A stretch of 64,000 bases of DNA, from contig OX597827.1 of NCBI GenBank assembly GCA_951406725.2, positions 80,538,001-80,602,000 of the forward strand. The letters run 5' to 3'. Under the pieces are notes generated by a model. The model was not told the origin of the DNA, searched no databases, and saw only the letters and a list, made by a program, of their open reading frames with translations. This DNA comes from Octopus vulgaris (taxonomy: Eukaryota). Positions 170 through 64,000 of the stretch are shown piece by piece. The translations under genes were made by a program, and so were the position numbers. Numbering within the stretch: position 1 is the first letter of the stretch; every line of letters starts with the position of its first letter.

Positions 170-2876
170 CTGAAACTCCTGGTATTTCTTCATAATGTTT
201 CAAGTCTCCATGTCTACCACTTCTCTTGGATGACATTGTATCTGATGTATAGTTACAAACCATAGTAGCATTATCTTCCACAGCATCATCACTTGATGTC
301 ACCACAACAGGTTGACAGTATTTCTGTTGACAAACAAACGAAAAGAAATGTGAGAGAAGACACAAAACGATGGAAGTTACAATCAACATGGATAGAGAAC
401 AATTTAATATTGGAATGTATTATTGAAGTTAAAACATATTCAAAGAGATTTCATTGTTCACTTTTACAGAGAGAAAAATGTAATGTTTCCACTTACTGGG
501 GTAGGTTTTGGTAAAGTTCTCGACTGAACTGAAGATTCATATTTGTTCTGTAGCTGACCTTCTGCATAACATTCACTCTTGGATCTCTCAGAATAGATAT
601 TCCGCTTCACCATCTCTTCTGCATTCCTCGACATAGCAGCAACAGAAGTGTTAGTCTGGTACAACAATTGTTTCATCTCTGCTCTACCTTGGTAGGTTGT
701 ATTCTTTGTGGAAGCAGCTGTGTTATCTCTGTGTTTAATACATTTCATAATACACAGCGTTATAGAAACAACAATAGCCACTGATATTATTACTGCTGAT
801 GATACAATGATAATAACCCATGTCATATGGACCCGACCTGAAGATTGTAAAGGTCCACTCTTCGACATTGGTGACGTCTCGTTACTAACAGCCAATACCA
901 AAGTGATACTAGTTGTTGACGACTGAACTGGACTACCACTGTCCTTCACAACAAACACCAGCTCATAACTTCCAGCATCATTTAGATAAACTTGTCTGGA
1001 GAAGGATAAAGCACCACTGTGTGAGTTCATACTAAACAGCTGTTTATCATTTCCTTGTTTGATTGCATATCTGAGGAAAGCATTGTTTCCACTGTCCCCA
1101 TCAGACGCTCTCAAAACTGTGATGTCACTCTTACTCTGCGGATGGTACTGCACATTTAGCGTGTAAGGGTCACTACTAGGATATGTAAAATACGGAGCAT
1201 TGTCATTTTGATCTAGAATCTCCACAACAACATTCGCTGTGTCATTCAGAGATGGGCTTCCATTGTCTTTGACAAAAACCTCAAACTTATACACATCTTG
1301 TTTCTCTCTGTCCAATGACATGGTCGCTGAAATGAAGCCATAACTGGTGATGAGAAATGGGAGATTGGATTTTTCTTTACGCAGCAGAGAATATGTGAGT
1401 TGTCCAGCAGATCCAAGATCAGGGTCAGTGGCATTGACAAAACCAATAGGGAAGTCTTTATCTTTGTTTTCGTAGGTGAGGAATTGGAATGTATCTTTGG
1501 TAAACTGTGGTTGTACATCGTTGATGTCAGTCACTTGGATAGAGAGGCTTTTAACACTTTTAAGAGGAGGTAATCCTTTATCTTGACAGGAGACAGGAAT
1601 GTTATAGTGTCCTTGTGTTTCTCTGTCCACTGGTTTGTTTAGAATGATTTTATATTCTTTAGATCCCATTGACTGTAGTTTGAATGTATCATGTTTGATA
1701 TCACAGCTGACCTCCCCATTTTGTCCCACATCATTGTCAGTGACCATCACATAAGCAATGAAACTACCAACTTTGGTATCTTCAGAAATGGTAGCTGTGT
1801 TGTCATTGATTGCAGAAACATAATCAATATCAATAGATGGAGGATTGTTGTGTTGATTGATAACATTTACAAGAACTGTTGCTATGGAACTAAAGGGTGG
1901 GCTGCCCCCATCTCTGGCTTCTATAAACAATTCGTAGGTTTTCTTTTTACCCAGACTTGAATATTTACTTAACAAAATAGTGCCACTTGTTTCATTTAAT
2001 TGAAAATAGCTTTTTGCTAAATCTGAAGTTTTGGGGCTGAAATGGAAAGTAATTTTACCATTTTCACCAGAATCAGCATCAGTTACAGATAAAACAATGA
2101 TGGGTTTGGATTTGTGATGTGTACTTTGTATGGATATATTATATAGAGGTTTAGAAAACTCTGGTGGGTTATCATTTATATCTATTATAGAAATATTTAT
2201 GTTTAAAATACCTTGTTTTGCTGGTGAACCTCCATCTTTAGCTATGACCTGTAGTAAATATGTATCTTTGATTTCTCTGTCTAATGATTCTTTTAAAACT
2301 ATGTTAAGTGAAGAAATTCCATCAGCTCTTTTAGACACTGACAGAGAGAATGGTTCTCCATTCTTTGATTTTAATTTATATTGTATTAATGAGTTTTGAA
2401 ATCCTACATCTTTGTCTATGGCATTTGGTAACGATCTTTTTGAACCTTTTGAAATATCTTCTACAAGCTGCATATTGATTTTAATCTTAGGAAATTTTGG
2501 TTCATGATCATTGATGTCCTCTATTACTATTTTGATTTTTAATATCTTTGTAATACTTCTTCCTTTATTGACAACCACCTTCACAATTCTAGAACATTCT
2601 CTATTGAATGTGCAGAGATCTTCTGCATCCAGTGTCTGAGCAGTGTACAGTTTACCTGTTTTGGTGATGTTAAATAACTGTGCCACCTTTCGTTTGAATT
2701 GACTGAATGTTATCAAATGTTGGTCAGATGGTTTAACATTGTCTAAAAGTTTAGAATCGGCAGCAATGTCTGCTACATAAGTTCCTGGACTTCTCTCTTC
2801 TTCCACGTGGTAGGTAAGGTCAATGGTCAGGACACACTGGACCAGTGACAATACAATGCACAATGACAAGGAACAT
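170..2876 (-). CDS. Pcdh: Protocadherin g1 (6 EC + TM); 3' exon lies left of the window; 1-bp frameshift just after the ATG
   Basis: Cadherin motifs (DxNDxxP linkers, LDRE, AxDxGxP), EC1 C-X5-C (CTFNREC), TM WVIIIVSSAVIISVAIVVSITLC. Large exon acceptor ttttag| at 2928, donor CCA|gtaagt at 497; exon 323..170 (acceptor caacag|AAA, donor TCAG|gttagc). The ATG at 2876, homologous to the paralogue starts, is out of frame (ATGTTCCTTGTCA vs ATGTTCCTGTCA in g2). The track ORF begins at a GTG that follows an in-frame stop. Confidence 0.9.
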
Positions 2877-5800
2877 ATTGTTCTGGAGTGATGGTACACT
2901 TCAGGCTATCAAGAAATGTTGTTTGAACCTAAAACAGAAATATAGTTCATTAAACAATTTTTATCAAAAATAAACCACAACTTAAAATCCACAGGTAACA
3001 TCGAAATAATAAGAGGATATGAGCCTCATACTTTATGACAGTTTACTTATAGATTGAAACATATATAAAATGGCTTCAATGTGCTTAACATGACTGAAAA
3101 AAATCAAAAACTAGTTGTCAGGGAAAGTGGTATTAGATAAGTATATTGAAGAAGTTTCTTCAATACCAAAAACATTTTCCATAAGTATTTCAGAGATGTA
3201 CATGCATATGAAGGGTTTTGATCTGAGATCATGTTCTGTAACTAAAATGATCGCAGTCTCAAAGACGTATGTTGACTCAAAAGAAAGCAACAAACGCGTG
3301 CTTCATTTAAACATTTATTTGATAGCTGTTCGGTGAGATGCAGAAAGAAAAATGAAAAAGAAATGTCTGTTAGAATTGCAACATGATGCAGCTGTGAGCA
3401 ATGGAAATTTTGACAGCATATTAAAATAGGGATTTAAGTGAAGTTTCTTAGCCTGAGTGTTTCTTAGTAACTAACTTGTCTTCCAAGCTGCAATTGTATA
3501 AGAAAGTATATGTTCCAAAAATGGATGCATACAAAGCTATGAATTCATGTGTCAACTGAAAAATAGCAAGATGCACACCTACCAAGACCATGAACATAAA
3601 CCATTATTTTCATTATACAAAAGAAGTACAAATGGGTCATCAAAAGACTTGTAATGGCTACTTTAAGTGGTAGAGAATGTTCCATGTTTGGTGTTCTATC
3701 ACTTACATGACTGAATATCTAATTCCATTGCAAATTATATCAGACTGCAATTTGGTTACACTACATTTCACTGGCCGGCTGCCATGTATTTTGTTCACCA
3801 AACAATAAGGGATTAGCAGTGCATAACTTACTTTGGAGTTCATAAGCAGAGGAGCATAACTCTGCTTTTTCATGGGCTTTCAAGATGGAATAACTTAAAC
3901 AAATGCACTCTTACATCAGAGATGAATTCAATCGTACATCAAGACATATACATACTCACTTGTATGCATAACCATGAATACATACGTGCACATGCACACA
4001 TGCACATGCACACATGCACAAGCATGTGTACAGCTAGACACATTCATACAGATATATTCTTCTGCACACATACACACACTTATACATGTGTGCACAGGCA
4101 AAGCCTTCCTAACTGGATTTTCTGTCACAAAAGTCATACGAGAATACCAAGTCCATGAGCGCCTATTACTTATTATTCGAGGAAATAATCTTGTCAGATT
4201 ATGTGGCTTACTTAACCAGAGCTAACATTTTGTAACACCAACATAAAGGCCTTTTTACCACTAGCTTAGCTGGAGTGTGTGCTGCCTGGGGCACCACTTC
4301 AGTTTTCCACCCGTGGGCCGCCATAAAAGTGTCACCTGGGGTTGCCCACCCCATCTGCCCACCTCCATCTATGCTAGTGCTTTTTACCAAATATAATATT
4401 CTTTTACTGTTCACAATGGTAATAATTAGTGGCCAGTGATCAAGGAGAAAATGTATTCCATTCCGTTATTTTCTACAAATGAAAAGTTCTTAAATTAAAT
4501 GTGCATCTTTCTAGAATACTATGAATATATATTTTATACGACTTCAAAATCCTCAGAGCCTGACAAAATTACAAATTTGTATTTGAATCATAAATGGCCA
4601 GAAGAGGTGGTTGCCATCTCCAGCATCTTCAACTATTTATACCAACACTACTAATACTCCAGCATGTAGAGACTGGGTAGAATTATAATCCAATCTAACA
4701 GAATCAACATTACACAGATTTACTCTTCTCAGATGCAAACCTAAAAACAAACAGATTCCTTATTGTCTCTACTGAAACATTTTTCTTTCAAACTTACAAC
4801 ATGCATTTCAAACACTACACTGAACTCCTCCACTCTCAAACCTCACACGGTGTCTGATGATTTAAGCAACAGTAATCAAAACACATTATGATCACCACCA
4901 CTAATTTAAGCAAAACATTTGAATCAAAGAATTTATTTTTATAACTTTTATCTTTGGTAAAAGAGAAATAAACTTCAGTTTAGTCTGACATTCTCATTTC
5001 ATAGTTTTTCCTTGAAACATCTTGGTGATACTGCTTTAACAGAGATGAAGTCAGAGGTATGTTCTTTATCACAGGAAATGTTATCCTTAACAATATTAAT
5101 ATTTTCAATACTTCAGGAACCATTCCAAAAGGTTCCACAGCATCGTCCTTAACCATAGGCTACCTACATATCCCTTACTTCTATAGCTGTCTTGATTCTC
5201 ATCTGTTCAATTCAAAGAAGGATCAAATTGATCCATTCATATTTCTTACCATTTTCCGCCGATTAATTAATATTAGAGTGGTAAGGATGATGGGGTGGGT
5301 TGAACAGGAAGGACTCAGTACTGTCTCATGTTACAAGGGTGCATACGGCCAGATAAACAGGGTGGAGAATGGGTGAAGGAGAAATAGCTTGAGATGGACA
5401 GTATCAGTGAAATAAAGAGAGGTGAGGGGTGTCATGGAAATGAAGAGGGACCAGAGAGAGGGTGTTGAAGTGGTGGAGAAGCTACCAGGGCTGGGCAAAA
5501 TATTTGTATAAATGCTTGGTTGATTGGGTTTGTGTAATTGTTTGTACTTATAACACATCTGTGCACCTAAATAGGCGCCTGGCATCTTGCAGGGATTTTA
5601 CTGAACCAGTAAGACAAACTTTCTCCATATTTGGTGACTTCTAACACATTATTTTACACATCTAGAGCATTTCTTTTCTTTTCTTCCTTCAAAACCATTT
5701 TAAATGAAGAAATTTATGCCATCTCCTTTAATCCATTGTCAAACACAAATCTCAGTCAAGCTTTCAGTTTCCACATAATGTGAGATTAGAGATTATCTCT

Positions 5801-7076
5801 TTGTTCCGAAACTACTTGTGATTATGTTTAGAAAGCAAAGTCACTAATGAAGATATGACTGATCCCAATCATAAACTGGAGTCACATTTGCTTTAAGAAT
5901 CACAGACAAAGAAAATGTCTTCAGAGAATATATTAAAGAATTAAATTGTAGAATCTAACTTAATAACAAACAATTTAAACCAATGTTTATAATTAGGGCT
6001 GCCGAATGATAACGAGCAACTCTGATTGCAATTGAATGACAAGAAAATAAGTAACAAAAGCTGGTTAACACGTGAATTAAATATCTTATGAGAATCAAGG
6101 CTAAAGTGAATTAGTTTAAGATTTCCATGACTAGAAATTATTAATAGTTAGAGTTTAAGTAATTCATACAAGAAGCTATATGTTTAAATATTATTACGAA
6201 AGATATCAGACAATACAGTGATGATGATGATGATGTTGATAGGTTGCTTTTAATTTGATATGCAAATCGAATTTATAAATTAAATACACTCTACTTTTAA
6301 TTAAAGTCACATATTTATAACATTATCAAAATATCTGATAAATACTAAGGATGCAGTATAGAATATGTTAGAAAATTTATACAGAAATTATACACAAAAA
6401 AAAATAAGAAGCAGCTGAATTAAGATGACATGTTTGAAATTCCAATTTTCGGACAAACACAGATACAAATAATAATGAAAGATATGCAACATATAATGGT
6501 ATTGTCTATATACATACATAAATATATATATATATATATATATTCAGTTACAAACATAGCTAGTCCTTTTATTGTCTTCTGCAGCACGACACCATTGTTG
6601 TTCACTCGTCACACATTTTAATCTTAATATGTCTGCCATTATCCCTGAGCAAAATTTGTAACACAACATCACTTCATCATTTCTAATAATCTACACACTT
6701 ACAGCCATTTCAAACTCTTGGCAAAATATTGTTTAATATCTTTTTATTTAATATCTTCACATCTCTTTCGCATACTATTTGCTATATATTCACAACAAAA
6801 AGACACACTCCATCACAACATTATATACACAGTTGCCTATTGTTACTGACCAATATATAAAACAAATATTATTTAGGAACGCATAATATTGTTTCAATGA
6901 AGTAAAGTCTAAATATTAATCATTTCAAACAGCATTTTCCAATTAATTTTCATATAAAACAATATGGACGCTATTATATTGTCTGTATTAGTTATTGTTT
7001 GTGGAGTAATATCTCACAGATTTGGTGAGTGATAATAAATTAAAATGAGATTATAAGAGATTAAATAGAAACTTAC

Positions 7077-7260
7077 CTTTTTGATAATTATATCATTGGT
7101 TATTCAGTGAGAAAGAGAAAGATGTATTGTTGTAGAAAGATCCATTGTAAGTGCTGCTGTAATGGTGTGACAATGGCTGTTATGGTGATGGAGTAGTGTA
7201 GCACGTCAGGCAGAGAGTCTGCTGCTAGGAGAGGGTTGCATGTGTCACTGAAGTTGTATG
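7077..7260 (-). other. Conserved non-coding first exon (5' UTR) of g1
   Basis: ~185 bp block near-identical in six copies, one upstream of each gene; ends in AAAAAG|gtaagt donor. The 5' boundary (TSS) is not determined. Confidence 0.75.
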
Positions 7261-7500
7261 TGTTCTGAGTGTACGTCCACCTGATAATATTCTGTGCATG
7301 TATTTAGCCTCAAAGAAGATGTTTACTATTTACATGGATATATATTTAAATAGCTAGAATTATGTTTATACTGAAACAGAACATAATTGTTTGGGATAAT
7401 AACATTAGTGATGTGAATGCTTGGCTTTGTTAGTGAATTGTTGTGTGTTTTATCCCGAATCTGATTGGTCGAGTGATCGAAACAGGAGACCAATGAAGCT
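7261..7500 (-). promoter_or_regulatory. Putative g1 promoter with inverted CCAAT pair
   Basis: ATTGG 7464-7468 and CCAAT 7490-7494 (21 bp apart); AT-rich TATA-like tract ~7340-7352; arrangement repeated upstream of each exon-1 copy. Confidence 0.6.
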
Positions 7501-8014: not shown

Positions 8015-11000
8015 TTATACATGTTTGACTGGAGTTTCTTCACTGGACTCTTTCGATGTAGTTGCATCGTTATTCTTATATAAATTTTGATCTGGAATTG
8101 AGATTGGAAACAGGCATTACAAAATCACAGACTTGCAGATTCCATTAATTAATTGCTTAATGAAAAAGTTTAAAATATTTATTATAATAAAACATATATT
8201 CTGGAGTTAATAAACTGAAAATCTGAGCAACTTATGATATAATTACTCAAGAATACATAAATAATATGCAGATGACATCAAGCTGTACCTTGAAATAAAG
8301 AGGTCAAATCCTGTACACTATGGATCTCTATTGCAAGCAGACCTGGACACAATGCAGCAGTGGATCATGGACTGGCAACTCAAGCTGGCTGTGGACAAAT
8401 GTACCTCCATGCATTTTGGGAGGAGAAACCCAGCGTCCACCTACTCCCTCCACAACACTAGTCTCAAAAAGTCTTCAAGTGAACGTGACCTGGGTGTTAT
8501 TGTCGACAGTGATTTGCGTTGGACGAAACACATCGCTAAAATTGTCAAGAAGGCTGAGGGTGTCTTGGCATCACTCACCAAATCCTTTGTGAGCCGCTCT
8601 CTGGCTATCTATCTGCGGCTTTATATAGCTATGGTAAGACCTCACCTGGAATTTGCATCACCAGTCTGGAACCCCTATCTTTCCCAGGACATCAATCGTC
8701 TGGAAGCTGTTCAGCGACGTGCAACCAAAAGAATACCCTCCATCAGGCATTTGCCATATCCTGAACGCCTTGCTTCCCTGGGCATGGACACATTGAAGCT
8801 CCGACGTCTGGCAGCTGACTTGGCAGACACCCATAAAATTATCAACCATCGCACAAACAATAACTCTGAGCACCTCTTCAAACTCCACCCATCTAACACC
8901 TGTGGACATATTTACAAAGTCAGAAAACAGCACAGCTCCCATGACTTCAGGAAACATTTTTTCACGCTGAGAGTTGCTGAAGCATGGAACAAACTGCCGG
9001 CATCGGTTGTTAGTTGTCGGAGCACTGCATCCTTCAAAACTTCCATGCTTCCTGAGATTCGCCAACACTACACTTGATTTTCTCCCCTCCATACACACAC
9101 AAGCATGTATCTGACTCATATACTGTTCACTTTCCAGACATTTCTACATTACTGCATGTACTTTATATGCACTTTCTGACAAGTTGTGGTGCACCTGAGC
9201 ACTGTATACAATAATTTCATTATTATTATTATTATTATTATTATAATAAGACCTGTTGAGGCAAGTGTAATCAAAATCAAATTCGATGACTGGCATCCTT
9301 GCTAGCGGGGTGCAAAGAGCACCATACGAGTGTGATCGTTGACAGAGCGGCTAACCGGCTTCTGTGCCAGTGGCACATAAACAGCACCATTCGAGTGTGA
9401 TCATTACCAGCGTTGCCTTACTGGCGCCTGTGCCCATGCTTGTAGGGTGTCAAGAGCACCATCTGAGCGTGATCGTCGCCAGAGCAGCCAACTGGCTTTT
9501 GTGTCGGTGGCACGTAAAAGGGCACCATTTGAGTGTGATCGTTACCAACATCGCCTTACTGGCACTTGTGCTGTTGGCATGTGTAAAAAGATTCGAGCAA
9601 GGTCGTTGCCAGTACCGCCTGACTGGCCACTGTGCCGGTGGCATGTGGAAAGCGCTCACTACACTGTTGGAGTGGTTGGCATTAGGAAGGGCATCCAGCT
9701 GTAGAAACTCTGCCAGATCAGATTGGAGAATGGTGCAGCCATCTGGTTTGCCAGCCCTCAGTCAAAATCGTCAAACCCATGCTAGCATGGAAAGCGGACG
9801 TCAAACAATGATGATGATGATGATGAAAACACATTTATTCCATTTATTCCAAAAATTGTTGACATTAAATATTCCAGAAAAACATGAGGGTAAAAAGTAG
9901 AAATGAATTCTTCACAACCGACAATATGTTTGTTAGAAATGGCAGCTACTAAAAATCCACACTTGAGATGAAAAAACAACATAATGGTTATTAACCTGAT
10001 ACTCCTGGTATTTCTTCGTAATGTTTCAAGTCTCCATGTCTACCACTTCTCTTGGATGACATTGTATCTGATGTATAGTTACAAACCATAGTAGCATTAT
10101 CTTCCACAGCATCATCACTTGATGTCACCACAACAGGTTGACAGTATTTCTGTTGACAAACAAACGATAAAGAAATGTGAGAAGACACCAAACAATGGAA
10201 GTTACAATCAACATGGAGAGAGAACAATTTAATATTGGAATGTATTATTGAAGTTAAAACATATTCAAAGAGATTTTATTGTTCACTTTTACAGAGAGAA
10301 AATGTAATGTTTCCACTTACTGGGGTAGGTTTTGGTAAAGTTCTCGACTGAACTGAAGATTCATATTTGTTCTGTAGCTGACCTTCTGCATAACATTCAC
10401 TCTTGGATCTCTCAGAATAGATATTCCGCTTCACCATCTCTTCTGCATTCCTCGACATAGCAACAGAAGTGTTAGTCTGGTACAACAATTGTTTCATCTC
10501 TGCTCTACCTTGGTAGGCTGTATTCTTTGTGGCAGCAGCTGTGTTATCTCTGTGTTTAATACATTTCATAATACACAGCGTTATAGAAACAACAATAGCC
10601 ACTGATATTATTACTGCTGATGATACAATGATAATAACCCATGTCATATGGACCCGACCTGAAGATTGTAAAGGTCCACTCTTCGACATTGGTGATGTCT
10701 CGTTACTAACAGCCAATACCAAAGTGACACTAGTTGTTGACGACTGAACTGGACTACCACTGTCCTTCACAACAAACACCAGCTCATAACTTCCAGCATC
10801 ATTTAGATAAACTTGTCTGGAGAAGGATAAAGCACCACTGTGTGAGTTCATACTAAACAACTGTTTATCATTTCCTTGTTTGATTGCATATCTGAGGAAA
10901 GCATTGTTTCCACTGTCCCCATCAGAGGCTCTCAAAACTGTGATGTCACTCTTACTCTGCGGATGGTACTGCACATTTAGCGTGTAAGGGTCACCACTAG

Positions 11001-12695
11001 GATATGTAAAATACGGAGCATTGTCATTTTGATCTAGAATCTCAACAACAACATTCGCTGTGTCATTCAGAGATGGGCTTCCATTATCTTTGACAAAAAC
11101 CTCAAACTTATACACATCTTGTTTCTCTCTGTCCAATGACATGGTCGCTGAAATGAAGCCATAACTGGTGATAAGAAATGGGAGATTGGATTTTTCTTTA
11201 CGCAGCAGAGAATATGTGAGTTGTCCAGCAGATCCAAGATCAGGGTCAGTGGCATTGACAAAACCAATAGGGAAGTCTTTATCTTTGTTTTCGTAGGTGA
11301 GGAATTGGAATGTATCTTTGGTAAACTGTGGTTGTACATCGTTGATGTCAGTCACTTGGATAGAGAGGCTTTTAACACTTTTAAGAGGAGGTAATCCTTT
11401 ATCTTGACAGGAGACAGGAATGTTATAGTGTCCTTGTGTTTCTCTGTCCACTGGTTTGTTTAGAATGATTTTATATTCTTTAGATCCCATTGACTGTAGT
11501 TTGAATGTATCATGTTTGATATCACAGCTGACCTCTCCATTTTGTCCCACATCATTGTCAGTGACCATCACATAAGCAATGAAACTACCGACTTTGATGT
11601 TTTCAGAAATGGTAGCTGTGTTGTCATTGATTGCAGAAACATAATCAATATCAATAGATGGAGGATTGTTGTGTTGGTTGATAACATTTATGAGGACTGT
11701 TGCTATAGAACTGAGGGGAGGGCTGCCCCCATCTCTGGCCTCTATAAACAGTTCATAAGTTTTCTTTTTTCCTAAATTTGAATATTTACTCACGAAAATT
11801 TCCCCACTTGTTTCATTCAACTGAAAATAGCTTTCTGCTAGATCTGATGTCTTGGGACTGAAATGGAAAGAAATTTTACCATTTTCACCAGAATCAGCAT
11901 CTGTTACATACAAAATAATGATGGGTTTAGATTTGTGATGTGTACTTTGTATAGATATATTATACAGAGGTTTAGAAAACTCTGGTGGGTTATCATTCAC
12001 ATCTATTACAGAAATATTTATATTAAAATTCCTTGTTTTGCTGGTGACCCTCCATCTTTAGCTATGACCTGTAATAAATATGTATCTTTGATTTCTCTGT
12101 CTAATGATTCTTTTAAAACTATTTTCAGAGAAGAAATACCATCAGCTCTTTTAGACACTGATAGAGAGAATGGTTCTCCAGTCTTTGATCTTAATTTATA
12201 TTGTATTAATGAGTTTTGAAATCCTACATCTTTGTCCATAGCATTGGGTATTGATCTTTTTGCACCTTTACCAATGTCTTCAGAAAACTCTATGTTGATA
12301 TTCTTTATAGGAAAGTTTGGTTGATGGTCATTGATGTCTTCTATGATTATTTTGATTTTTAATATTTTTGAAACACTGGTTCCTTTATTGACAACAACCT
12401 TCATAGTTCTAGAACATTCTTTGTTGAATGTGCAGAGATCTTCTGCATCCAGTGTCTGAGCAGTGTACAGTTTACCTGTTTTGGTGATGTTAAATAACTG
12501 TGCCACCTTTCGTTTGAATTGACTGAATGTTATCAAATGTTGGTCAGATGGTTTAACATTGTCTAAGAGTTTAGAATCGGCAGCAATGTCTGCTACATAT
12601 GTTCCTGGACTTCTTTCTTCTTCCACATGGTAGGTAAGGTCTATGGTCAAGACACAGTGGACCAGTGACAATACAATAGACAATGACAGGAACAT
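8015..12695 (-). CDS. Pcdh: Protocadherin g2; coding exons 12695-10321, 10149-9996, 8091-8015; 1-bp deletion at ~12022
   Basis: The track ORFs 12018..12695 and 10276..12000 join if one A is restored (GILNINISVID, as in paralogues). GT-AG junctions are in phase. Terminal exon reads DQNLYKNNDATTSKESSEETPVKHV*. ~868 aa if corrected. Large-exon acceptor at 12751. Confidence 0.9.
8265..9245 (+). mobile_element. 5'-truncated CR1/L2-type LINE (RT C-terminus, 3' UTR, (ATT)n tail) in g2 intron 3
   Basis: Open frame from YADDIKLY (8265) through ERDLGVIVD, LYIAMVRPHLEFASPVWNP, LEAVQRRATKRI and FFTLRVAEAWNKLP to the stop at 9077; (ATT)n tail ~9219-9243. Confidence 0.9.
9250..9825 (+). mobile_element. 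Non-autonomous retroelement with RTE-type 3' end and (GAT)n tail
   Basis: ggcattaggaagggcatccagctgtagaaac...cccatgctagcatggaaagcggacg followed by (gat)n; internal ~60-70 bp imperfect repeats; many related copies in the window. Confidence 0.8.
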
Positions 12696-13389
12696 ATTGC
12701 TCTTTCTATGCAGGTATGGTTAAAGATATCCAAGTGTACTAAATATTGAACCTAAAAGAGAAATACATTTCTAGTTATTATCAGGAATAAATCAGTTTAA
12801 AATATACATATTTATCAGTGTAACATGAGAAATGTACAAACTGTCTGTTTTACAAAACCACATTGATTCAGAAAGAACCCAGCCATTAAAGAATAGTAAC
12901 AACTCTGTATTGTGAAATTTTATTTGATTCACTAAACAGGTTCTGGATATCTACATTCAATATTTATCCTGACTATCAAAAAGGTTTTGTTTAAAGTTAT
13001 AACAAAGAATACATTCCAAGAATGATGAAGAGGTTGTTTTTAGTTGGTACCAGTTTCTAGATCTCTGCATCAGTCTAAAGAAACGAAAACTGAGAGATAC
13101 TCAGGACATTTATTATCTTATTAATATTAAACTTCAGACTATTATCTCAATGTAATTCAGCAATTATCATTTATTATTTTATATAAATGTTATATTATAG
13201 TTTCTCAATACCTACCCCAGCTAGAGAATGCTGAATGCTCAGTTACTCTGAGAGATTAATATCTAAGTGTATGGAACAACATACAGAATCATGACAGAGT
13301 GGGTTCCGTAGATAATTTAGGAAATTTCTCTGGTTTTGTCAATAATTTATAATTATTGTTTGCATCTCTAACAGTATACTTTGTAAAAT

Positions 13390-15873: not shown

Positions 15874-17880
15874 TACTAGTAACATATAATGAAAGCTGAA
15901 ACGCTCTCCCTACACTTAACTATAATAATATAAAGATGTAAATATTTAAAGCTAAATCAAACATCATGTGCTAATTCCTTAAGAACCCTCTCTCTGAAGA
16001 GTAAGTTAACAGACAACCTCCCTTCAATGCAGAGAATAGTGTCCCAATATGGAAGAGGAAAAGTAAAAATATGCCCTTCTCAGTTAAGTTTCAAGAGAGG
16101 GTCCAATGGAAGCCCAGTAGTTAAAAGGTTAGCACATGGCATTGGATATTGTTTTAAATATTTGCAACTTCATATTATTAGAGCTAAAAGGTTTGTAAAA
16201 TATCACCTCTTTATAACATGTTTCTAGTGAATAAACAGAGATGCCTCGTGAAAATTTGGTAATGAGTCAGACAAGCAGATGAGACTATGTTGCAGCAGAG
16301 TTTCTATGGCCAGATGCCCTTCCTGATGCCTCTCTTTGTTTCCACGCAAGATAATGACCCCCACAACCCTCACCCCAGTCTATTATACAACAAACAGCCT
16401 GAGTATGGTTATATGAAGCAATTAAGATAACGACACTGTTTGAATGAGCCTTTCGTTTATGAAGATTATAGAACATGTGAAGGCATATCAAGACGCCTGG
16501 CTATGCTTTCATGATGGACTGCAAGCTGAGGACAGAGTGAGGCCTTTGTTTACATTTAGTAAGAACACATGAAGAGGAGGGGAAATACAAACTCACTCAC
16601 ACTGTGAGTTTCTTCAGTTTCCAGTTACCAATTTCACTCACAAGATATCAGTTGATCTGTGGCTGTCATACAAGATGTCAGCTAACAACATCCATACTAC
16701 AGGACTAAAGCCCTAACCACATGGTTCAAAAGTGGATGTCTTATACACACTACCATGTTTCAAACTGATTCACAATGGCTATTTTCAATGTAAGCATTTA
16801 TGCTATTGCTTTTGAGAAATAGGACCCAAATAATGATGAGAGATTCAAGTCAGAAATCTGACAACAGAATAAATGACAAAAGCTGTTTAATATGAAAAGT
16901 GAATGTTTTACAAGAACAAAGAGTAAAGTGTAACAGTTTAAGACGTTCAGGGCAGGCATCAAATTTTGGTGACTAAATGTTTAGATATTCAAACAGAAAT
17001 CTTTGTGGATACAGAATATTGAGAAATATATTTGACAATGAGATGATGATGAAGAAGTTTCACTTTGAATTGTAAACATGATTAATAATTGAGATAAACA
17101 TAATTTCCGTAAATTTAAAGCTCTGATGTTATAAAAATTCAAAAATCTATAATTAAATTGAAGGGACAGTGTAAAAAGGAGATCAAAAATTGTGACTATA
17201 AATAAATCATAGAGGGAAATAGGAGAGAATGTTCAAAAAAGAAGTAACATATTACTATGACTTACAAATATGCTTTAGAAGCAAACATATGCAATATAAA
17301 CATTTTCTACATTGACGTAGTCTACAACATGCTAATATTTCTATTCACTTCTTGATAGCTGTCAGTCTTACTGTCCTCCATTATACCCAACCATAATCCT
17401 TAACATACCATTAGCTTATCACTGATAATACTTGACACATTATACACAACTTTTAAGAAAATATCCTTCAGTATATTTTTATATGAAAATCTTGACATAA
17501 CTTTCTTACAGCATCAGCTAAAGAGACACAACATCACATCTTCCTTACAACAAAAGCAAATGCACGCATTACTGCTATATACTGCAGAGATTGTTCTCTA
17601 TTGTTAGTGATCAATATCTGTAACAAATGTTACACAGACACATACTGTTGCAACGAAATAAAGTCTAAATATGAAACATCTCAATCAACATCATTAAATG
17701 AAGTATGAAAAGAAAATAGCATGGGCTACATGTATGAAAATGATGTGTAAATTATTGGTGAATCTCTTTGTTCTCCTGTTAATATTAAATATGTAAGATT
17801 CTAACATGTTACAACAATCTCTAACTGATTCAATAAGATACATAAAACAAAATTATAAAAGAGATTAAATGGAAACTTAC

Positions 17881-18066
17881 CTTTTTTTTAATAATTATAT
17901 CATTGGTTATTCAGTGAGAAAGAGAAAGATGTATTGTTGTAGAAAGATCCATTGTAAGTGCTGCTGTAATGGTGTGACAATGGCTGTTATGGTGATGGAG
18001 TAGTGTAGCACGTCAGGCAGAGAGTCTGCTGCTAGGAGAGGGTTGCATGTGTCACTGAAGTTGTAC
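17881..18066 (-). other. Conserved non-coding first exon of g2
   Basis: Near-identical to 7077-7260; donor AG|gtaagt (acttac 17875-17880). Confidence 0.75.
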
Positions 18067-22253: not shown

Positions 22254-22409
22254 TATTGTAGAATGATGGATACTTAAAATCGTTTGAATATGTTGATGGG
22301 ACCTAAAATAGAAATACAAATTCATTAAAGAATTGTAATGAGAAATAAATAACAGTTTAAAATACAGAGATATCATTGAAATAATAGGAATATATAAATC
22401 TATCACTTC

Positions 22410-47310: not shown

Positions 47311-47624
47311 GTTGATAGTTCGTCTTGTTTAAAAAATCAAATGTGTTAACCTAAGAAGAGAAATACATTTCTATTTATTATCAGAAGTAAATCATTTTAA
47401 AATATAGTTATCAGTTACATTAGAAATATGAATCTATTACTTTAGAAAACTGCATTTATAGATTTTATGAAGAAGTCAATAATTTGTTTCAATGAATCTG
47501 CAAAACTGAGAAAAATAGCAAAAGCTATGTATCCTATGAAAGAGATTTTATTTAATTCACTAAATTGTTTTTGGATAACTACACTGAAGAACAAGAATGA
47601 GAACCAGAACAATGATAACAGCAG

Positions 47625-55585: not shown

Positions 55586-57325
55586 TTTAAATATTTAAAT
55601 GATAAACTTATAAATAAGCAACAACTTGCTTAGTTCTTATGTGATATCAACGATATATAATGGGCAGACTGGAATATACAGACATATTACAATGTGAATA
55701 TATGACATACAAAATTGAATATGTCATTGTTTAGTGGTTCTGAAAAGTCCAATTAGAATGGAAAATGTTCATTCCATAGAATTTTAGTATCCACAGTGAT
55801 GATATTAAGATATAACATAGAGAAAACAGAGGAAAGCGTGCCTGGCAGAATAATAATTTATGATTCCATGACTTATTACAGTTGAGATATTGGCTGATGA
55901 TACACAAATTGTTTATTGTAAATATTTAAAGGAATCAGACAAATGTGTAATAGGTGCACATTAACAGTGTACTTAAGAATGCTTGCTACATTTAGCAAAG
56001 AGTGTTCTTATCATCAAAATCTATCGTTTTTCATAGTCAGTGGTTTCTAACAAATACTTTTGCATATACGGAACATTCTGTACAATTCTTCTAAAGTCTT
56101 TGTATAATAAAACTTATGCAAAGCAGTCTCACAATCATCAGAAAAATTAAATAAGAAATAAATTCTGCAATCCAACACAGTTTCATGTAGTTTAAAATAT
56201 ACTTGCATCATTTGTCTGAGAAGTAAAACAATCCATGAATGATGAAAGAATCTCAGACAGGAGAACTAACAAAAGAATAAGTGACATGGGAGAGTTAATG
56301 TAAAGATGAGATATTTAGGGCACCGACCGATTCTGATAACTACAGAGGGATGGTAGCAGTTTACGTGAATTATATAAAACATGGATACAGAATATTGTGG
56401 AATATATCTGAACACAATGCTTTTCCTGCTGAAGAATTGTTTTCAGTTTGAATTGGGAAACATTGTTTATTGATAAAATTCACTTCAATTTTAATTTCTG
56501 TAAATATAAGCTTTAAATGATATTAAAATATCACAAAAGTTCATAACAAAATCTTGGAAATACATTATAAATTACAATATGGAATTTCGGCTCAAGTTAT
56601 AGAAATGAATAAACTATGAAAATAGTTGAAATAAGTTGATCTACTTGAAAACAATGAATTATTCTGTCCAAACTATGCTAACATGGAAGCCACATATACA
56701 ATGATGATGACGATGGCAATGATTTGACATAAATGCTATAAGTCTATATTCCTTCAATTCTAGACAGAAGTGTTTTTTTTCTCATTATTTTATCTTCTAC
56801 GACATGACACCATATCTGGTCATTCCCTGACAGCAGTCAATCGTAATATGTCCGCCATTATCCCCAACTAAAATCTATAACACACTCCTGTGTCATAAGT
56901 TCTAAACTCACATACAATAACCATACAAAAAACATATTTCTACTACACAAAACGTCTAAATATAATTTTCATATAACATCTACTATACAGATGAAATATT
57001 ATATCTTACTTTATAAACAAACATGCACACACAAACACACACGCACACAAACACACACTTTATAATATATCTCATAGGTTGTTCTCAGTTGTTACCAATC
57101 AGTATATGTAACACATTTAACATAATTTCAATAAATAAAGACTGAGTGTTGAACATTTCAATCCACAACTCTTAATTAATTGTGAAATAAAACAGTTTGA
57201 ACAATATTAATGAAAAAATATGTACAAAATGTTCAATCTCTTTGTTCTTTTGTTAATATTTAATACATATTCAGAGAGATTCTTATATCAGATGAGATTA
57301 TAAAAGAGATTAAATAGAAACTTAC

Positions 57326-57500
57326 CTTTTTTAATAATTATATCATTGGTTATTCAGTGAGAACAGAAAGATGTATTGTTGTAGAAAGATCCATTGTAAG
57401 TGCTGCTGTAATGGTGTGACAATGGCTGTATGGTGATGGAGTAGTGTAGCACGTCAGGCAGAGAGTCTGCTGCTAGGAGAAGGTTGCATGTGTTGTATGT
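57326..57500 (-). other. Non-coding first exon of g5 (most diverged copy)
   Basis: Same block with a 9-bp deletion (cactgaagt) and two 1-bp deletions; donor acttac 57320-57325. Confidence 0.7.
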
Positions 57501-58500: not shown

Positions 58501-61426
58501 TTACACGTGCTTTACTGGTGTTTCTTCATTAGAATCTTTTGATGTAGATGAATCGTTGTTTTTATATATATTTTGATCTGGAATTGAGATAAAAAGATAT
58601 TTTTGCCAAATATATAAACACAGAGGTACATATTTAAAAAGAATTTAACATGGCTTATATGGATTTAGTATGCATAAAAACAGGACATTAAAACAAAAAC
58701 CAAAAATATTGTCAATGTAGTTATTAACCTGAAACTCCTGGTATTTCTTCGTAATGTTTCGGGTCTCCTTGTCTACCACTTCTCTTGGATGACATTGTAT
58801 CTGATGTATAGTTACAAACCATAGTAGCATTATCTTCCACAGCATCATCACTTGATGTCACCACAACAGGTTGACAGTATTTCTGTTGACAAACAAACGA
58901 TAAAGAAATATGAGAAGACACCAAACAATGGAAGTTACAATCAACATGGAGAGAGAACAATTTAATATTGGAATGTATTATTGAAGTTAAAACATATTCA
59001 AAGAGATTTCATTGTTCACTTTTACAGAGAGAAAATGTAATGTTTCCACTTACTGGGGTAGGTTTTGGTAAAGTTCTCGACTGAACTGAAGATTCATATT
59101 TGTTCTGTAGCTGACCTTCTGCATAACATTCACTCTTGGATCTCTCAGAATAGATATTCCGCTTCACCATCTCTTCTGCATTCCTCGACATAGCAACAGA
59201 AGTGTTAGTCTGGTACAACAATTGTTTCATCTCTGCTCTACCTTGGTAGGCTGTATTCTTTGTGGCAGCAGCTGTGTTATCTCTGTGTTTAATACATTTC
59301 ATAATACACAGCGTTATAGAAACAACAATAGCCACTGATATTATTACTGCTGATGATACAATGATAATAACCCATGTCATATGGACCCGACCTGAAGATT
59401 GTAATGGTCCACTCTTCGACATTGGTGATGTCTCGTTACTAACAGCCAATACCAAAGTCACACTAGTTGTTGACGACTGAACTGGACTACCACTGTCCTT
59501 CACAACAAACACCAGCTCATAACTTCCAGCATCATTTAGATAAACTTGTCTGGAGAAGGATAAAGCACCACTGTGTGAGTTCATACTAAACAACTGTTTA
59601 GCATTTCCTTGTTTGATTGCATATCTGAGGAAAGCATTGTTTCCACTGTCCCCATCAGACGCTCTCAAAACTGTGATGTCACTCTTACTCTGCGGATGGT
59701 ACTGCACATTTAGCGTGTAAGGGTCACTACTAGGATATGTAAAATATGGAGCATTGTCATTTTGATCTAGAATCTCAACAACAACATTCGCCGTGTCATT
59801 CAGAGATGGGCTTCCATTATCTTTGACAAAAACCTCAAACTTATACACATCTTGTTTCTCTCTGTCCAATGACATGGTCGCTGAAATGAAGCCATAACTG
59901 GTGATGAGAAATGGGAGATTGGATTTTTCTTTACGCAGCAGAGAATATGTGAGTTGTCCAGCAGATCCAAGATCAGGGTCAGTGGCATTGACAAAACCAA
60001 TGGGGAAGTCTTTATCTTTGTTTTCGTAGGTGAGGAATTGGAATGTATCTTTGGTAAACTGTGGTTGTACATCGTTGATGTCAGTCACTTGGATAGAGAG
60101 GCTTTTAACACTTTTCAGAGGAGGTAATCCTTTATCTTGACAGGAGACAGGAATGTTATAGTGTCCTTGTTTTTCTCTGTCCACTGGTTTGTTTAGAATG
60201 ATTTTATATTCTTTAGATCCCATTGACTGTAGTTTGAATGTATCATGTTTGATATCACAGCTGACCTCTCCATTTTGTCCCACATCATTGTCAGTGACCA
60301 TCACATAAGCAATGAAACTACCAACTTTGATGTTTTCAGAAATGGTAGCTGTGTTGTCATTGATTGCATTAACATAATCAATATCAATAGATGGAGGGTT
60401 GTTGTGTTGGTTGACAACATTTACTAAAACGGTTGCTATGGAACTGAGAGGAGGGCTACCTCCATCCCTGGCTTCAATGAATAATTCAAAAGATGTTTTT
60501 TCATTCAAACTAGAAATTCTAGATAAAAATATTTTGCCAGCTTTTTCACCCAATTCAAAATATTTCTTAGCTAAATCAGAAGTTTTGGGGCTGAAATGGA
60601 AAGTAATTTTACTGTTGGACCCTGCATCTTTGTCTGTCACTGACAAAGTAAGAATAGGTTTTGTCTTGTCGTGTGTGGTTCTAATGGAAATGTTATAAAG
60701 GGGTTTTGAAAATACAGGTGGATTATCATTCTCATCTTCGACAACAATCACAACATTTAACACACTCTGTTTAGATGGAGAACCTCCATCTTTAGCAATT
60801 ACTTCTAAATTGTATTTTTCTTTTAACTCTCTGTCTAATTTATCTTTTAAAACAATCTTTAACGAGGAAATACCATCAGCTCTTTTAGACACTGACAGGG
60901 AAAATGAGTCATCAGATTTTTTAAGTTTATATTCAATGAAAGAATTTTGATAACTAACATCTTTGTCTATGGCATTTGGGATTGACTTTTTCATACCTTC
61001 ACGCTCTCCTTCACCAAACTTTAAAATTATTTGTTTTTCAGGAAATTTTGGTTGATGGTCATTAATGTCTTCTATGATTATTTTGATTTTTAATATTTTT
61101 GAAACACTCGTTCCTTTATTGACAACAACTTTCATAGTTCTGGAACATTCTTTGTTGAATGTGCAGAGATCTTCTGCATCCAGTGTCTGAGCAGTGTACA
61201 GTTTACCTGTTTTGGTGATGTTAAATAACTGTGCCACCTTTCGTTTGAATTGACTGAATGTTATCAAATGTTGGTCAGATGGTTTAACATTGTCTAAAAG
61301 TTTAGAATCGGCAGCAATGTCTGCTACATATGTTCCTGGACTTCTCTCTTCTTCCACATGGTAGGTAAGGTCAATGGTCAGGACACAGTGGACCACTGAC
61401 AATACAATACACAATGATAATAACAT
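58501..61426 (-). CDS. Pcdh: Protocadherin g6, intact, ~867 aa; coding exons 61426-59054, 58882-58729, 58577-58501
   Basis: 805-aa track ORF plus two spliced exons; terminal exon DQNIYKNNDSSTSKDSNEETPVKHV*. Large-exon acceptor at 61479. Confidence 0.95.
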
Positions 61427-63614
61427 GGTGTTGTTAAATGCTGGTACAGCTTAAAGATGCCGAGTTATGATGATTAAACCTAAAACGAAAATGCATTTAT
61501 TTCATTAGTTAATATAGATATGATCCTCAGTTTTACATACACAATTAGCATTGAATATCTGAATATATCATTTTATGTACGAAGATTTAAAAAGAAATGA
61601 TTATTTTCTGTATTAATGTTTCTTAAAAAACTTGAAAAGAAAAACAAAAAAAAAACAACTTGATATTCCATCAAACATTTGATAAACTAAACTGGGATTA
61701 ATTATATAACTTTACAAAAACAAATAAAGACTCATCAAAAAATCTTTCACCAATAAAACTACAAACATTTAAGTCTGTGATAATGTAGCTTGTTTAGTTA
61801 ATTCTAATTTGTAACAATGCACAATATTCATTGCTTTACTAATTCCTTTAAATATTAGTTTTATGTATCAGCAATCTATTGTTATTCATTCATTTAAAAA
61901 TGTGTCCCACAGTCAAATTACTGTCATATTTTATACATCCCTCTGTTGTTCTGTTGCTATAATATTAAACCATTTCCTACTTTCTTGCTTTATAATCACC
62001 ATAAATACTGAAGCGGTTATATTCTAATGGTTCCTACAAAATATTTAATATCTGAAACCTGATTCCATGTTTATTCAACCCAATTGCTTTTCCAGTTTCT
62101 GGAAGCTTCCCAGTGACTTTCCAATAAATATTACATTTTTTGCACATTGCTGTCCCTAGTCTCTTGTTGTTCGTTTACTTTACTTCCCAGAAAAAATTAA
62201 GAATTTGTAAATAGAAAGAGTCTCTACTGAATTTGAAATCAATCAATAATTGTGTACATCAGGATAGGCAGTTCTCTAAAACTTATCACCAGCCATTGTA
62301 TATTTTAAACAAACTACTTTCCAACCATCATTCTATTAATGAGTGAGTTAATTTGAAGACTGAAAAGTTTGTCAAAAACAGAGGCTAAAATTTAACCATC
62401 TAAGTAGAAATTCAGGACAAGCAAAAAATTTGACGACTAGATATTAATTGTTGCAGTTTAAGTAATTTATATAAAAACACATACGAAAATACAATATTGT
62501 GAAACTGTGACATGATAATGAAAATGATGATGATGATGAATTTTTTTTATTTTTATTTTAAACCTAATTAATATCTAAAATACTCATCAACTTAAATTTT
62601 TGTAAAATTAACAAAATCTAACAAAAGTTTGTAATTAAATATTGGAAAGATTAGCATAAAATACAATAAAAAATTTTGACAGTTTTATAAATAAATTATG
62701 AAAGGAAGTCGGAAGACATGTTGAAAAACAGATTAATGTATAATTAAATCTTCCAAGTATGCTTTGTAAGCTAACAAATAACATATATATATATGAATTG
62801 TATTGTTTATATTCTGTCAACTTCAGACAGAACTCACTTCTCTTTTTATTGTCTCATATAAGCTGCCACCATATCTCTTCACCCAATAACAGCCACAAAT
62901 CCTAATATGGCTGCCATTATTCCAATCAAAGTCTTTAACACACTGTCAGCTCATTACACAGATAATAATCTGCACAGTAAGAGCAGACTGGGACACACTG
63001 CAGCACACTGCTTATACACAGCAATTCCCTAAACTTCTAAAATATACCATTTACCACATAGATAGAAAAGTAAAACTTCCTTATATCATCACAAAACTAC
63101 AAATGAGGTTGCCTCTGCATAATCACTGAACCAGCTAGAAACAATAGTCAGATCCTCTCAAATCTGTCTTAAAATAGAAAGGAAGAGATAGACATTAGAC
63201 CCTTAGATACACAGAAAGATTGGAGGATCGAGCTAGAATGTCTTTGATTATAAACTTTGTTCAACCAGGTCTGGCGTAACTTTAAAGAACAACAACCAAT
63301 AACATTATACACTAATCTCTACTCTTAATAACCAATATATGTAACAAATATTATACGCATATTGATAATGTTGCTTTAGTACAATAGAATATTAAAAATT
63401 TTGGCTGACAACATCTAATCAAGTCTAAAACAATAAAAGTATATATATATATATATATATATAATATGAAGAAAATTACTATAGAAAACATGTCATATAT
63501 TGTTCAATGTCTTTGTTCTCTTGTTAATATTGAATATATAAGAACAAATCTAACAGATTCAATGAGACTTATTGCATCAAATGAGATTATAAAAGAGACT
63601 AAATAGAGACTTAC

Positions 63615-63798
63615 CTTTTTAATAATTATATCATTGGTTATTCAGTGAGAAAGAGAAAGCTGTATTGTTGTAGAAAGATCCATTGTAAGTGCTGCTGTAA
63701 TGGTGTGACAATGGCTGTTATGGTGATGGAGTAGTGTAGCACGTCAGGCAGAGAGTCTGCTGCTAGGAGAGGGTTGCATGTGTCACTGAAGTTGTATG
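63615..63798 (-). other. Conserved non-coding first exon of g6
   Basis: Near-identical block; donor acttac 63609-63614. Promoter homology continues to the window edge, stopping just before the expected CCAAT pair. Confidence 0.75.
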
Positions 63799-64000
63799 TT
63801 TTGTGGGAGTACATCCACCTAATGATACTTTGTGTATGTATTTATCCTTAAAGATGTTTACTATTTACAAATATATGGATATATATCTAAATAGCTACAA
63901 TATTGTGTAGTTAAACACGACAAAATTATTTGGCTTAATAACATGAGTAATGTAAATGCTGTTCTTAGTAAGTGATTTCTTTCTAGGTTTTACTGAGGAT

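What the first reader, a model, noticed from the sequence alone, without database searches (positions are those of the whole stretch)
170..64000. Array of self-contained protocadherins with constant and variable regions inside each gene: candidate invertebrate neuronal identity code
Seen: six complete genes, each with its own promoter, leader exon and cytoplasmic exons. EC1 (up to ECSR), EC4-EC6, TM, intron 2 and exon 3 are almost identical, including at synonymous sites, while the end of EC1 through EC3 differs greatly. Known: vertebrate clustered protocadherins get homophilic specificity largely from EC2-EC3, show gene conversion in the flanking domains and use shared constant exons; coleoid protocadherin expansions are independent of them. 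Inference: this locus reaches the same constant/variable logic without shared exons, by homogenising the constant parts of every copy.
Basis: partly seen in the sequence, partly recalled or inferred. Interest (0 to 1): 0.85.

Follow-up and report, generated by a model that had tools for sequence, protein, structure and literature searches.

The report
Octopus protocadherins with matched variable interfaces
In an octopus array of 28 whole-gene protocadherin copies, most of each gene is nearly identical between copies while a middle segment keeps old variants shared with the argonaut, and distant residues in that segment change together in pairs that would touch in a vertebrate-style self-binding dimer, so these genes likely form an independently evolved self-recognition code for neurons.

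Summary
The constant/variable pattern is confirmed and extended. The window holds 6 of 28 tandem protocadherin copies on an octopus contig. Synonymous divergence is 0.02-0.06 in most of EC1 and from mid-EC4 to the tail (intron 2, exon 3 and the leader exon are also near-identical), against 0.5-0.66 from the EC1 F-G strands through EC3.

Against Argonauta, 41 of 42 fixed differences lie in mid-EC4 to tail and 1 in early EC1; all 88 shared polymorphisms lie in the variable zone. Two other arrays repeat the design. Inside the variable zone linkage decays within 30-60 bases, yet two distant pairs stay matched: EC2 190 with EC3 327 (28 of 28; Argonauta 22 of 23) and the EC1 F-G loop with EC4 360 (27 of 28). 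A third array shows an EC1/EC4 charge swap (21 of 22). These are the domain pairings of the vertebrate antiparallel dimer.

Corrections: three of the six genes are frameshifted in the assembly, g1's last exon is outside the window, and no zone has dN/dS above 1. The EC3-EC4 calcium motifs are missing. Binding and stochastic expression are untested. The cluster and suspected conversion are published; I found no report of the domain pattern or the covariation.

The parts
170..323 (-). g1 (c16) exon 3, near-identical among copies; g1's last exon lies 165-241 bases left of the window
497..2928 (-). g1 exon 2 (ATG 2876; variable zone 1757-2587; +1 base near 2868, probably an assembly error)
7076..7261 (-). 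g1 leader exon (non-coding, near-identical among copies)
8015..8091 (-). g2 exon 4 coding part (diverged 13-18% among copies)
9996..10149 (-). g2 exon 3
   Evidence: joint 10149-10321 in two RNA-guess runs, not in two DNA runs
10150..10320 (-). g2 intron 2, 171 bases, near-identical among copies, spliced out in RNA-guess runs
10321..12751 (-). g2 (c17) exon 2 (ATG 12695; variable zone 11578-12407; -1 frameshift at codon 223, status unresolved)
17880..18069 (-). g2 leader exon; covered by an RNA-guess contig 17885-18069, with a loose end like an exon-2 start
19335..19411 (-). g3 exon 4 coding part (approximate, from the match to g2 exon 4)
19552..19705 (-). g3 exon 3
19877..22302 (-). g3 (c18) exon 2 (ATG 22253; variable zone 21134-21964; +1 frameshift at codon 28)
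30007..30193 (-). g3 leader exon
30893..30969 (-). g4 exon 4 coding part
31214..31367 (-). g4 exon 3
31539..33968 (-). g4 (c19) exon 2, intact, class B (ATG 33908; variable zone 32796-33620; I101/G360, N190/I327)
43175..43361 (-). g4 leader exon
44393..44469 (-). g5 exon 4 coding part
44611..44764 (-). g5 exon 3
44935..47350 (-). g5 (c20) exon 2, intact, class A (ATG 47310; variable zone 46192-47022; V101/A360, K190/L327)
   Evidence: EC1-4 model
57325..57500 (-). g5 leader exon (9-base deletion near its start, shared with c10)
58501..58577 (-). g6 exon 4 coding part
58729..58882 (-). g6 exon 3
59054..60310 (-). g6 constant zone: codons 373-791 (EC4 B-strand to EC6, TM, tail)
60311..61138 (-). 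g6 variable zone: codons 97-372 (EC1 F-G strands, EC2, EC3, start of EC4); codon 101 at 61126, 190 at 60859, 327 at 60448, 360 at 60349
61139..61375 (-). g6 constant part of EC1 (codons 18-96)
61376..61479 (-). g6 exon-2 5'UTR and signal peptide (ATG 61426), diverged among copies
63614..63800 (-). g6 leader exon; 27 copies at 97-100% in the genome plus one weak partial match, all inside this array
63801..64000 (-). g6 upstream block, 15-33% diverged among copies (presumed promoter; function not shown)

Best explanation
This is part of a 28-copy array of whole-gene octopus protocadherins whose constant parts are homogenised within each species while the EC1 F-G to EC4 A segment keeps old, reshuffled variants, likely through gene conversion opposed by selection that keeps each copy's predicted self-binding surfaces matched. 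Step 1 (shown): synonymous sites, intron 2, exon 3 and the leader exon are near-identical within a species and carry species-specific fixed differences. Step 2 (inferred): frequent short gene conversions cause this; they also act in the variable zone, where they shuffle cassettes some tens of bases long. Step 3 (shown as a statistical pattern): residues 190 and 327, and the EC1 F-G loop and EC4 357-369, change together across otherwise shuffled copies. Step 4 (inferred from vertebrate structures): these pairs would meet across an antiparallel EC1:EC4 / EC2:EC3 dimer between two cells, so a copy with mismatched halves would bind itself poorly and be removed. Step 5 (untested): each copy would bind itself preferentially and signal through an interchangeable EC5-6, TM and tail, giving cells a combinatorial surface identity. 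Whether expression is stochastic per neuron or fixed per cell type is open.
For: dS contrast of 10-20 fold among 25 internal copies. At amino-acid-invariant codons pS is 0.25-0.28 within 6 codons of a variable site and 0.03-0.06 beyond. 27 Octopus against 22 Argonauta rows: 42 fixed differences, 0 of them in codons 97-372; 88 shared polymorphic columns, all in 97-372; per-site variability rho 0.73 inside the zone. Constant tree: species clades 98/98; EC2-3 tree: classes A and B 99/99, each holding both species. 8 of 9 EC2 motif types occur in both species. Class-A r2 falls from 0.23 to about 0.05 by 60 bases; neighbouring sites are more compatible than in 2000 of 2000 site shuffles. K190-L327 against N190-I/F327: 28 of 28, Argonauta 22 of 23, top of 3882 pairs; stratified chi2 42.9 against a shuffled maximum of 28.2; 8 independent pairs, about 7.9 concordant, p 0.008. 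V101/A360 against I101/G360: 27 of 28, O. sinensis 15 of 15, Argonauta 19 of 23; this label is not clustered on the flank tree (10 changes, shuffled 8.9). Array 3: Lys106 with acidic DSEVD 12 of 12, other residues with basic ASKIG 9 of 10. Array 1, both positions 106 and 365 charged: opposite in 7 of 8, Argonauta 12 of 12. Vertebrate interface faces: PMC7082078 passage; EC4 loop against EC1 beta6-beta7 loop: PMC5001838 section 7. The EC1-4 model matches protocadherin EC1-4 structures.
Against: No binding or expression experiment exists here. dN/dS is below 1 in every zone and patch (0.13-0.75), so classic positive selection is not shown. The EC3-EC4 linker lacks the DRE and DxNDN calcium motifs here and in 83 of 83 other relatives aligned, unlike the vertebrate chains, so the dimer shape may differ. 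One strongly variable patch (285-312, EC3 D-E strands and E-F loop) lies mostly off the canonical EC3 C-F-G face. The octopus equivalents of the strongest vertebrate coupled pairs (123-300, and 338 of 84-338) are invariant here (read). O. sinensis breaks 190/327 in 2 of 15 and O. bimaculoides fragments in 1 of 4; Argonauta has I101 with A360 in 4 of 8. The 101/360 independent-pairs tests had only 3-4 pairs and could not reach significance. 106-365 (chi2 20.5) and the array-3 top pair among 17 intact copies (12.6) are below their genome-scan nulls (21.9 and 16.0), so the charge test is post hoc; array 2 showed no standout pair. The 101-324 link in Octopus was not repeated in Argonauta. O. vulgaris neurons express about 21 PCDH genes each, some by cell type, with no clear difference by genomic location (PMC9712504 passages).
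Confidence: 0.65

Rival explanations
1. Conversion is real, but the variable zone serves another geometry or partner: a bent calcium-poor EC3-EC4 hinge gives a different dimer, or the zone binds other isoforms or other ligands, and the covarying pairs reflect cis or within-chain coupling.
For: EC3-EC4 calcium motifs absent in 83 of 83 relatives. The variable EC3 D-E/E-F patch is off the canonical face. Mouse alphaC1 also lacks the full EC3:EC4 calcium set and its trans binding could not be examined (PMC8901172 passage).
Against: Both top covarying blocks are exactly EC1:EC4 and EC2:EC3; EC1:EC4 makes 13 of the top 20 pairs but 194 of 7307 tested (these 13 are mostly one linked block). Matching within one gene is what self-binding predicts, and EC1 and EC4 are three domains apart in an elongated chain.
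Confidence: 0.17
2. Neutral runaway: the middle of the gene diverged by chance, became too different to convert, and the long-range linkage only records which locus received a middle tract.
For: Divergence lowers conversion rates (general knowledge). The class A/B block (about codons 140-312) does behave as one linked unit. dN/dS is below 1.
Against: The same zone and the same sites vary in Argonauta and in two other arrays about 60% identical in protein. The zone still recombines at fine scale. Sites next to the coupled residues are mostly unlinked, both Lys and both Asn codons occur at 190, and the labels are scattered on the flank tree.
Confidence: 0.12
3. No conversion: recent duplication, or strong purifying selection on constant domains, explains the identity.
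For: A recent burst at 8-14 Ma was reported from whole-gene distances for a clustered octopod PCDH group (PMC9795677 passages).
Against: Synonymous sites and intron 2 are homogenised while introns 1 and 3 of the same genes differ at 35-50%. The constant tail differs by 20% from Argonauta yet under 1-2% within each species, so it is free to change but changes in all copies together.
Confidence: 0.03
4. Assembly collapse or polishing made the constant parts look identical.
For: 6 of 28 copies have frameshifting indels, clustered in c16-c24, and at least one looks like an assembly error.
Against: Copies keep private differences (constant zone distances 0.002-0.015). Protein sets of O. sinensis and Argonauta from other assemblies show the same pattern with their own fixed residues. 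Public contigs over the constant zone collapse at many times single-copy depth.
Confidence: 0.02

Closest known systems
Coleoid protocadherin arrays (octopus chromosome 14; Albertin 2022 PMC9068888; Styfhals 2019 PMC6339937; PMC9795677)
   Same: Tandem, same-direction, multi-exon whole-gene copies. These papers already suggest homogenisation by gene conversion and note the absence of shared constant exons (passages).
   Different: The passages read give no domain-level pattern, no cross-species cassette sharing and no covarying interface pairs. A whole-gene date of 8-14 Ma may be biased by conversion.
Vertebrate clustered protocadherins (alpha, beta, gamma)
   Same: Six EC repeats. High dS in EC2-3 and low dS in EC5-6 (PMC4978886 passages; mouse alpha EC1 96%, EC2 69%, EC3 59%, EC5 98%). 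Covariation across EC1:EC4 and EC2:EC3 (PMC5001838, 10.1101/493106). A promoter-like block before each gene.
   Different: Independent origin. No shared constant exons: each gene has private leader, tail and last exons. No CTCF consensus in the upstream blocks. EC3-EC4 calcium motifs missing. EC1:EC4 carries discrete matched types with a charge swap. The vertebrate beta cluster also lacks constant exons (recalled), but is single-exon.
Insect Dscam1 and chelicerate sDscam
   Same: A modular code in which separate surface patches must each match (Dscam1 mechanism recalled; sDscam promoter choice from PMC6339937 passage).
   Different: Ig folds, not cadherin. Combinations arise by splicing or promoter choice in the cell, whereas here they are fixed in the germ line by shuffling among whole genes.

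Membership tests
Protocadherin family | Six or seven EC repeats with protocadherin-type EC1, TM and tail | tested here: met
   Pfam Cadherin x5 plus Cadherin_2; best PDB sequence and fold matches are protocadherin EC1-4
Coleoid clustered PCDH arrays | Head-to-tail whole-gene copies on the PCDH chromosome | tested here: met
   28 copies over about 300 kb of C14, two more arrays within 1.4 Mb; relatives are octopod and argonaut PCDHs
Vertebrate clustered Pcdh (alpha/gamma) | Variable first exons spliced to shared constant exons | tested here: not met
   26 of 28 copies have their own last exon and 27 of 28 their own leader; splicing between neighbouring genes was not testable
Vertebrate clustered Pcdh | Orthology with vertebrate clusters | not tested
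   No tree with vertebrate rows was built; independent origin is taken from PMC9068888 and PMC4978886 passages
Vertebrate clustered Pcdh | CTCF-bound promoter element in each promoter | tested here: inconclusive
   A recalled CTCF consensus with up to 2 mismatches gave 10 hits against 8.6 expected, none in the leader or upstream blocks; one consensus only, no weight matrix
Vertebrate clustered Pcdh | Conversion low in EC2-3 and high in flanking domains | tested here: met
Vertebrate clustered Pcdh | Canonical calcium-binding linkers through EC1-4 | tested here: not met
   EC1-2 and EC2-3 canonical; EC3-4 has NQHNN and no DRE; 0 of 83 relatives canonical
Vertebrate clustered Pcdh | Antiparallel EC1-4 trans homodimer | tested here: inconclusive
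   Covariation fits EC1:EC4 and EC2:EC3; no structure of the dimer
Vertebrate clustered Pcdh | Strictly isoform-specific homophilic binding | not testable with these tools
   needs aggregation or biophysical assays
Vertebrate clustered Pcdh | Stochastic promoter choice in single neurons | not testable with these tools
   only contigs of public runs were available

The most novel reading that the evidence does not exclude
Octopods have built a germ-line combinatorial self-recognition code: short gene conversions recombine a small, ancient set of interface cassettes (EC1 loop with EC4 loop, about nine EC2 motifs, a 190/327 switch) among whole-gene copies, selection keeps facing cassettes matched, homogenised leaders and tails stand in for shared exons, and neurons express different subsets for self-avoidance. 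This would be convergence with vertebrate clustered protocadherins down to the binding interface.
Probability: 0.3. Interest if true: 0.9.

Novelty: new variant of a known kind. Interest (0 to 1): 0.74.

Why it matters
Whether the cephalopod protocadherin expansion works like the vertebrate neuronal barcode has been open since the first octopus genome; PMC9068888 states that it makes no claim about function. These sequences give residue-level predictions (190/327; EC1 F-G loop with EC4 357-369; a Lys/Glu against DSEVD/ASKIG swap in a neighbouring array) that single and double swaps can test in a standard cell-aggregation assay. They also warn that whole-gene distances misdate these arrays: the exon-wide distance of 0.069 averages 0.191 in the variable zone with 0.009 in the constant zone, while the variants are shared with Argonauta. 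Short reads from the leader and constant zones cannot be assigned to a copy.

Tried and rejected
Positive selection: no zone or patch had dN/dS above 1; the 29 codons most variable in Argonauta class A gave 0.48 in Octopus class A. The 101-324 link and the 134-312 link were dropped: not repeated in Argonauta. Array 2 gave no standout covarying pair; no null was run for it. A recalled CTCF consensus was at chance level. A cDNA-mediated explanation was considered because two islands end at splice donors; it is disfavoured because intron 2 is homogenised and the exon-2 5'UTR is not. The structure tool returns no coordinates, so within-chain distances were not measured. Papers not held: PMC353213 (Noonan 2004), PMC4635037, PMC4795812 (Albertin 2015), PMID 28627384 (Wang and Ragsdale 2017); these and unseen supplements could hold the domain pattern. 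Earlier scan findings: none. Within-O. sinensis identity in EC5 was 0.906, out of line with other constant domains; the cause was not checked. Runs with small word shares were not used.


Full report
LOCUS. The window is G000:C14:80,538,001-80,602,000 of a 2.8-Gb genome. The closest named proteins are from Octopus vulgaris and O. sinensis. Six minus-strand protocadherin genes (g1-g6) lie in it. I fetched 310 kb around it and found 28 copies with this EC1 type (c01-c28; g1-g6 = c16-c21), one further copy with a diverged front half, and fragments. Each copy has a non-coding leader exon, an intron of 2.4-10 kb, one large exon from signal peptide to tail, a 171-base intron 2, exon 3, intron 3 and a last exon. 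27 of 28 have a leader match and 26 of 28 a last-exon match. In two RNA-guess runs, but not two DNA runs, contigs skip intron 2. Residue numbers below are those of g6.

OBSERVATION. Among 25 internal copies (c01, c02 and c28 left out because their ends differ), dS is 0.055 for codons 18-96, 0.55 for 97-127, 0.52 for EC2, 0.66 for EC3, 0.18 for 347-372 and 0.016-0.042 beyond. Intron 2 differs at 0.019 of sites, against 0.34-0.51 for intron 3, intron 1 and the exon-2 5'UTR. The six window copies alone and all 28 give the same picture. The leader exon differs at 0-2% over most of its length among 27 copies and the identity stops at its donor; the last exon differs at 13-18%. Six of 28 copies are frameshifted in this assembly, among them g1, g2 and g3. 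g1's extra base is missing from contigs of three runs at about single-copy depth; g3's is missing from collapsed contigs of four runs; g2's is unresolved.

WHICH PART IS UNUSUAL. Argonauta hians has the same array (23 rows from 22 records). Leaving out the edge gene of each species, 27 Octopus and 22 Argonauta rows show 42 fixed differences (EC1a 1, EC4b 3, EC5 7, EC6 13, TM 3, tail 15) and none in codons 97-372, while all 88 shared polymorphic columns fall in 97-372. On the constant-zone tree each species is one clade (98, 98). On the EC2-3 tree classes A and B (99, 99) each hold both species (quick search, LG+G4, three outgroups). Eight of nine EC2 motif types, defined by eye, occur in both species. 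So the constant parts evolve in concert and the variants are older than the Octopus-Argonauta split. Two other arrays on C14 repeat the design: array 2 (20 of 26 listed copies fetched; EC2/EC3 pS 0.34-0.54, EC4b-TM 0-0.03, with EC1 also variable in one subgroup) and array 3 (17 intact of 22 copies; 0.31-0.37 against 0.01-0.06). GC at four-fold sites is 0.32 in the constant and 0.23 in the variable zone, in line with biased conversion but weak.

THE VARIABLE ZONE IS SHUFFLED. In 22 class-A copies, mean r2 between 159 sites falls from 0.23 (15 bases or less) to about 0.05 (over 60 bases), with 82-86% of distant pairs failing the four-gamete test. No two of the 28 copies are closer than 10 residues in this zone (mean 51). 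dN/dS stays below 1 everywhere. Synonymous divergence is high within 6 codons of a variable residue and low beyond. This reads as old variants shielded from overwriting, not as fast adaptive change.

MATCHED DISTANT PAIRS. Of 3882 pairs at least 30 residues apart, the top one is 190-327: K with L in 18 copies, N with I or F in 10, no exception in 28. Argonauta follows in 22 of 23, O. sinensis in 13 of 15, O. bimaculoides fragments in 3 of 4. Next is the EC1 F-G type with residue 360: 27 of 28, O. sinensis 15 of 15, Argonauta 19 of 23. Stratified by species and class (51 rows, 7307 pairs), these score chi2 42.9 and 28.3-33.1 against a shuffled maximum of 28.2 in 200 rounds. On a tree without the trait columns, 190/327 has 8 independent pairs, about 7.9 concordant (p 0.008); 101/360 had too few pairs to test. 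The EC1 type needs 10 changes on the flank tree (shuffled 8.9), so locus ancestry does not explain it. In array 3, Lys at 106 goes with acidic DSEVD at 365-369 in 12 of 12 and other residues with ASKIG in 9 of 10. In array 1, where 106 and 365 are both charged they are opposite in 7 of 8 (the exception is c28, which has a 108-base deletion) and in 12 of 12 Argonauta rows. This charge test is post hoc and does not pass the all-pairs nulls by itself.

STRUCTURAL READING (inferred). The EC1-4 model (pLDDT 87.9, pTM 0.58) matches protocadherin EC1-4 structures; it places 190 in EC2 strand E and 327 at the EC3 F-G loop end. Vertebrate dimers pair the EC1 C-F-G face with the EC4 A-B-E-D face and the EC2 A-B-E-D face with the EC3 C-F-G face (PMC7082078, passage). 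The EC4 loop after strand 1a touches the EC1 beta6-beta7 loop (PMC5001838, section 7). On the printed gamma-B4 alignment 190 is E163 and 327 about M295, near the reported Y161-K302 and 159-302 pairs of gamma-B3 (10.1101/493106, parts 1-2 of 4 read; numbering assumed to be alike). Against a simple copy of the vertebrate dimer: EC3-EC4 lacks DRE and DxNDN in this family and in 83 of 83 other relatives, and the variable patch 285-312 is largely off the canonical face.

WHAT IS KNOWN. The chromosome-14 arrays, whole-gene duplication and suspected conversion are published (PMC9068888 and PMC6339937, passages). Low conversion in EC2-3 is known for vertebrates (PMC4978886, passages). Octopus neurons express about 21 PCDH genes each (PMC9712504, passages). 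A recent burst at 8-14 Ma was dated from whole-gene distances (PMC9795677, passages); whether this array belongs to that group I did not test. Nine searches listed no paper on domain-restricted conversion, covariation or binding assays in cephalopod protocadherins; one search returned zero papers. PMC5106212, PMC8901172 and PMC13218726 were seen as passages only. Four relevant papers were not held and no supplements were read, so novelty is provisional.

VERDICT. A real feature of a known cluster. Concerted evolution of the constant parts is well supported. Selection for matched self-binding surfaces is likely (0.65 for the whole mechanism). A stochastic single-neuron code is possible but unshown (0.3). 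It is not a member of the vertebrate clustered family, but probably works like one.

Noticed in passing
window 63614-63800 and the 26 other leader exons: The leader holds two short upstream reading frames (13 codons and 2 codons) and a TGACGT motif; two CCAAT-like boxes lie about 210-240 bases upstream in g6. The leader matches only inside this array (27 strong, 1 weak).
   Followed up: partly
window 7234-7809 and 18777-19368: RNA-guess contigs cover the stretch between one gene's stop codon and the next gene's leader (only about 750-1270 bases), so 3'UTRs may run into the next promoter. PMC9712504 mentions read-through fusions among PCDH genes.
   Followed up: no
window 60349-60500 (g6 EC3 end) and alignment A1: The EC3-EC4 linker lacks calcium motifs in all 83 other relatives aligned, apparently a family-wide trait; one search found no paper on it.
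   Followed up: partly
window 8265-9074: Reverse-transcriptase-like fragment (Pfam RVT_1, E 4.9e-6, below cut-off) and other high-copy repeats inside g2 intron 3.
   Followed up: partly
G000:C14 80,369,000-80,401,500 and 80,668,600-80,695,100 (L003-L006, L026-L029): Array edges: c01 pairs with a distinct Argonauta edge gene; c01 and c02 lack the array's exon 3-4; c28 has a 108-base deletion; isolated constant-zone fragments at 98-99% lie beyond the last gene.
   Followed up: partly
window g1-g3 and c22-c24 (G000:C14 80.54-80.63 Mb): All six frameshifted copies lie in a run of nine neighbours, which suggests a locally poor assembly rather than scattered pseudogenes; array 3 also has 5 broken copies of 22.
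   Followed up: partly
L032-L051 (array 2): The EC4 motif STQNHNTAT typical of array 2 also appears in array-1 copy c09 and an O. sinensis copy, hinting at conversion between subfamilies about 60% identical.
   Followed up: no
L030-L031, G000:C14 80,718,280-80,719,821: A 514-codon open frame ending in a C2H2-zinc-finger-like sequence lies about 47 kb beyond the array (judged by eye).
   Followed up: no
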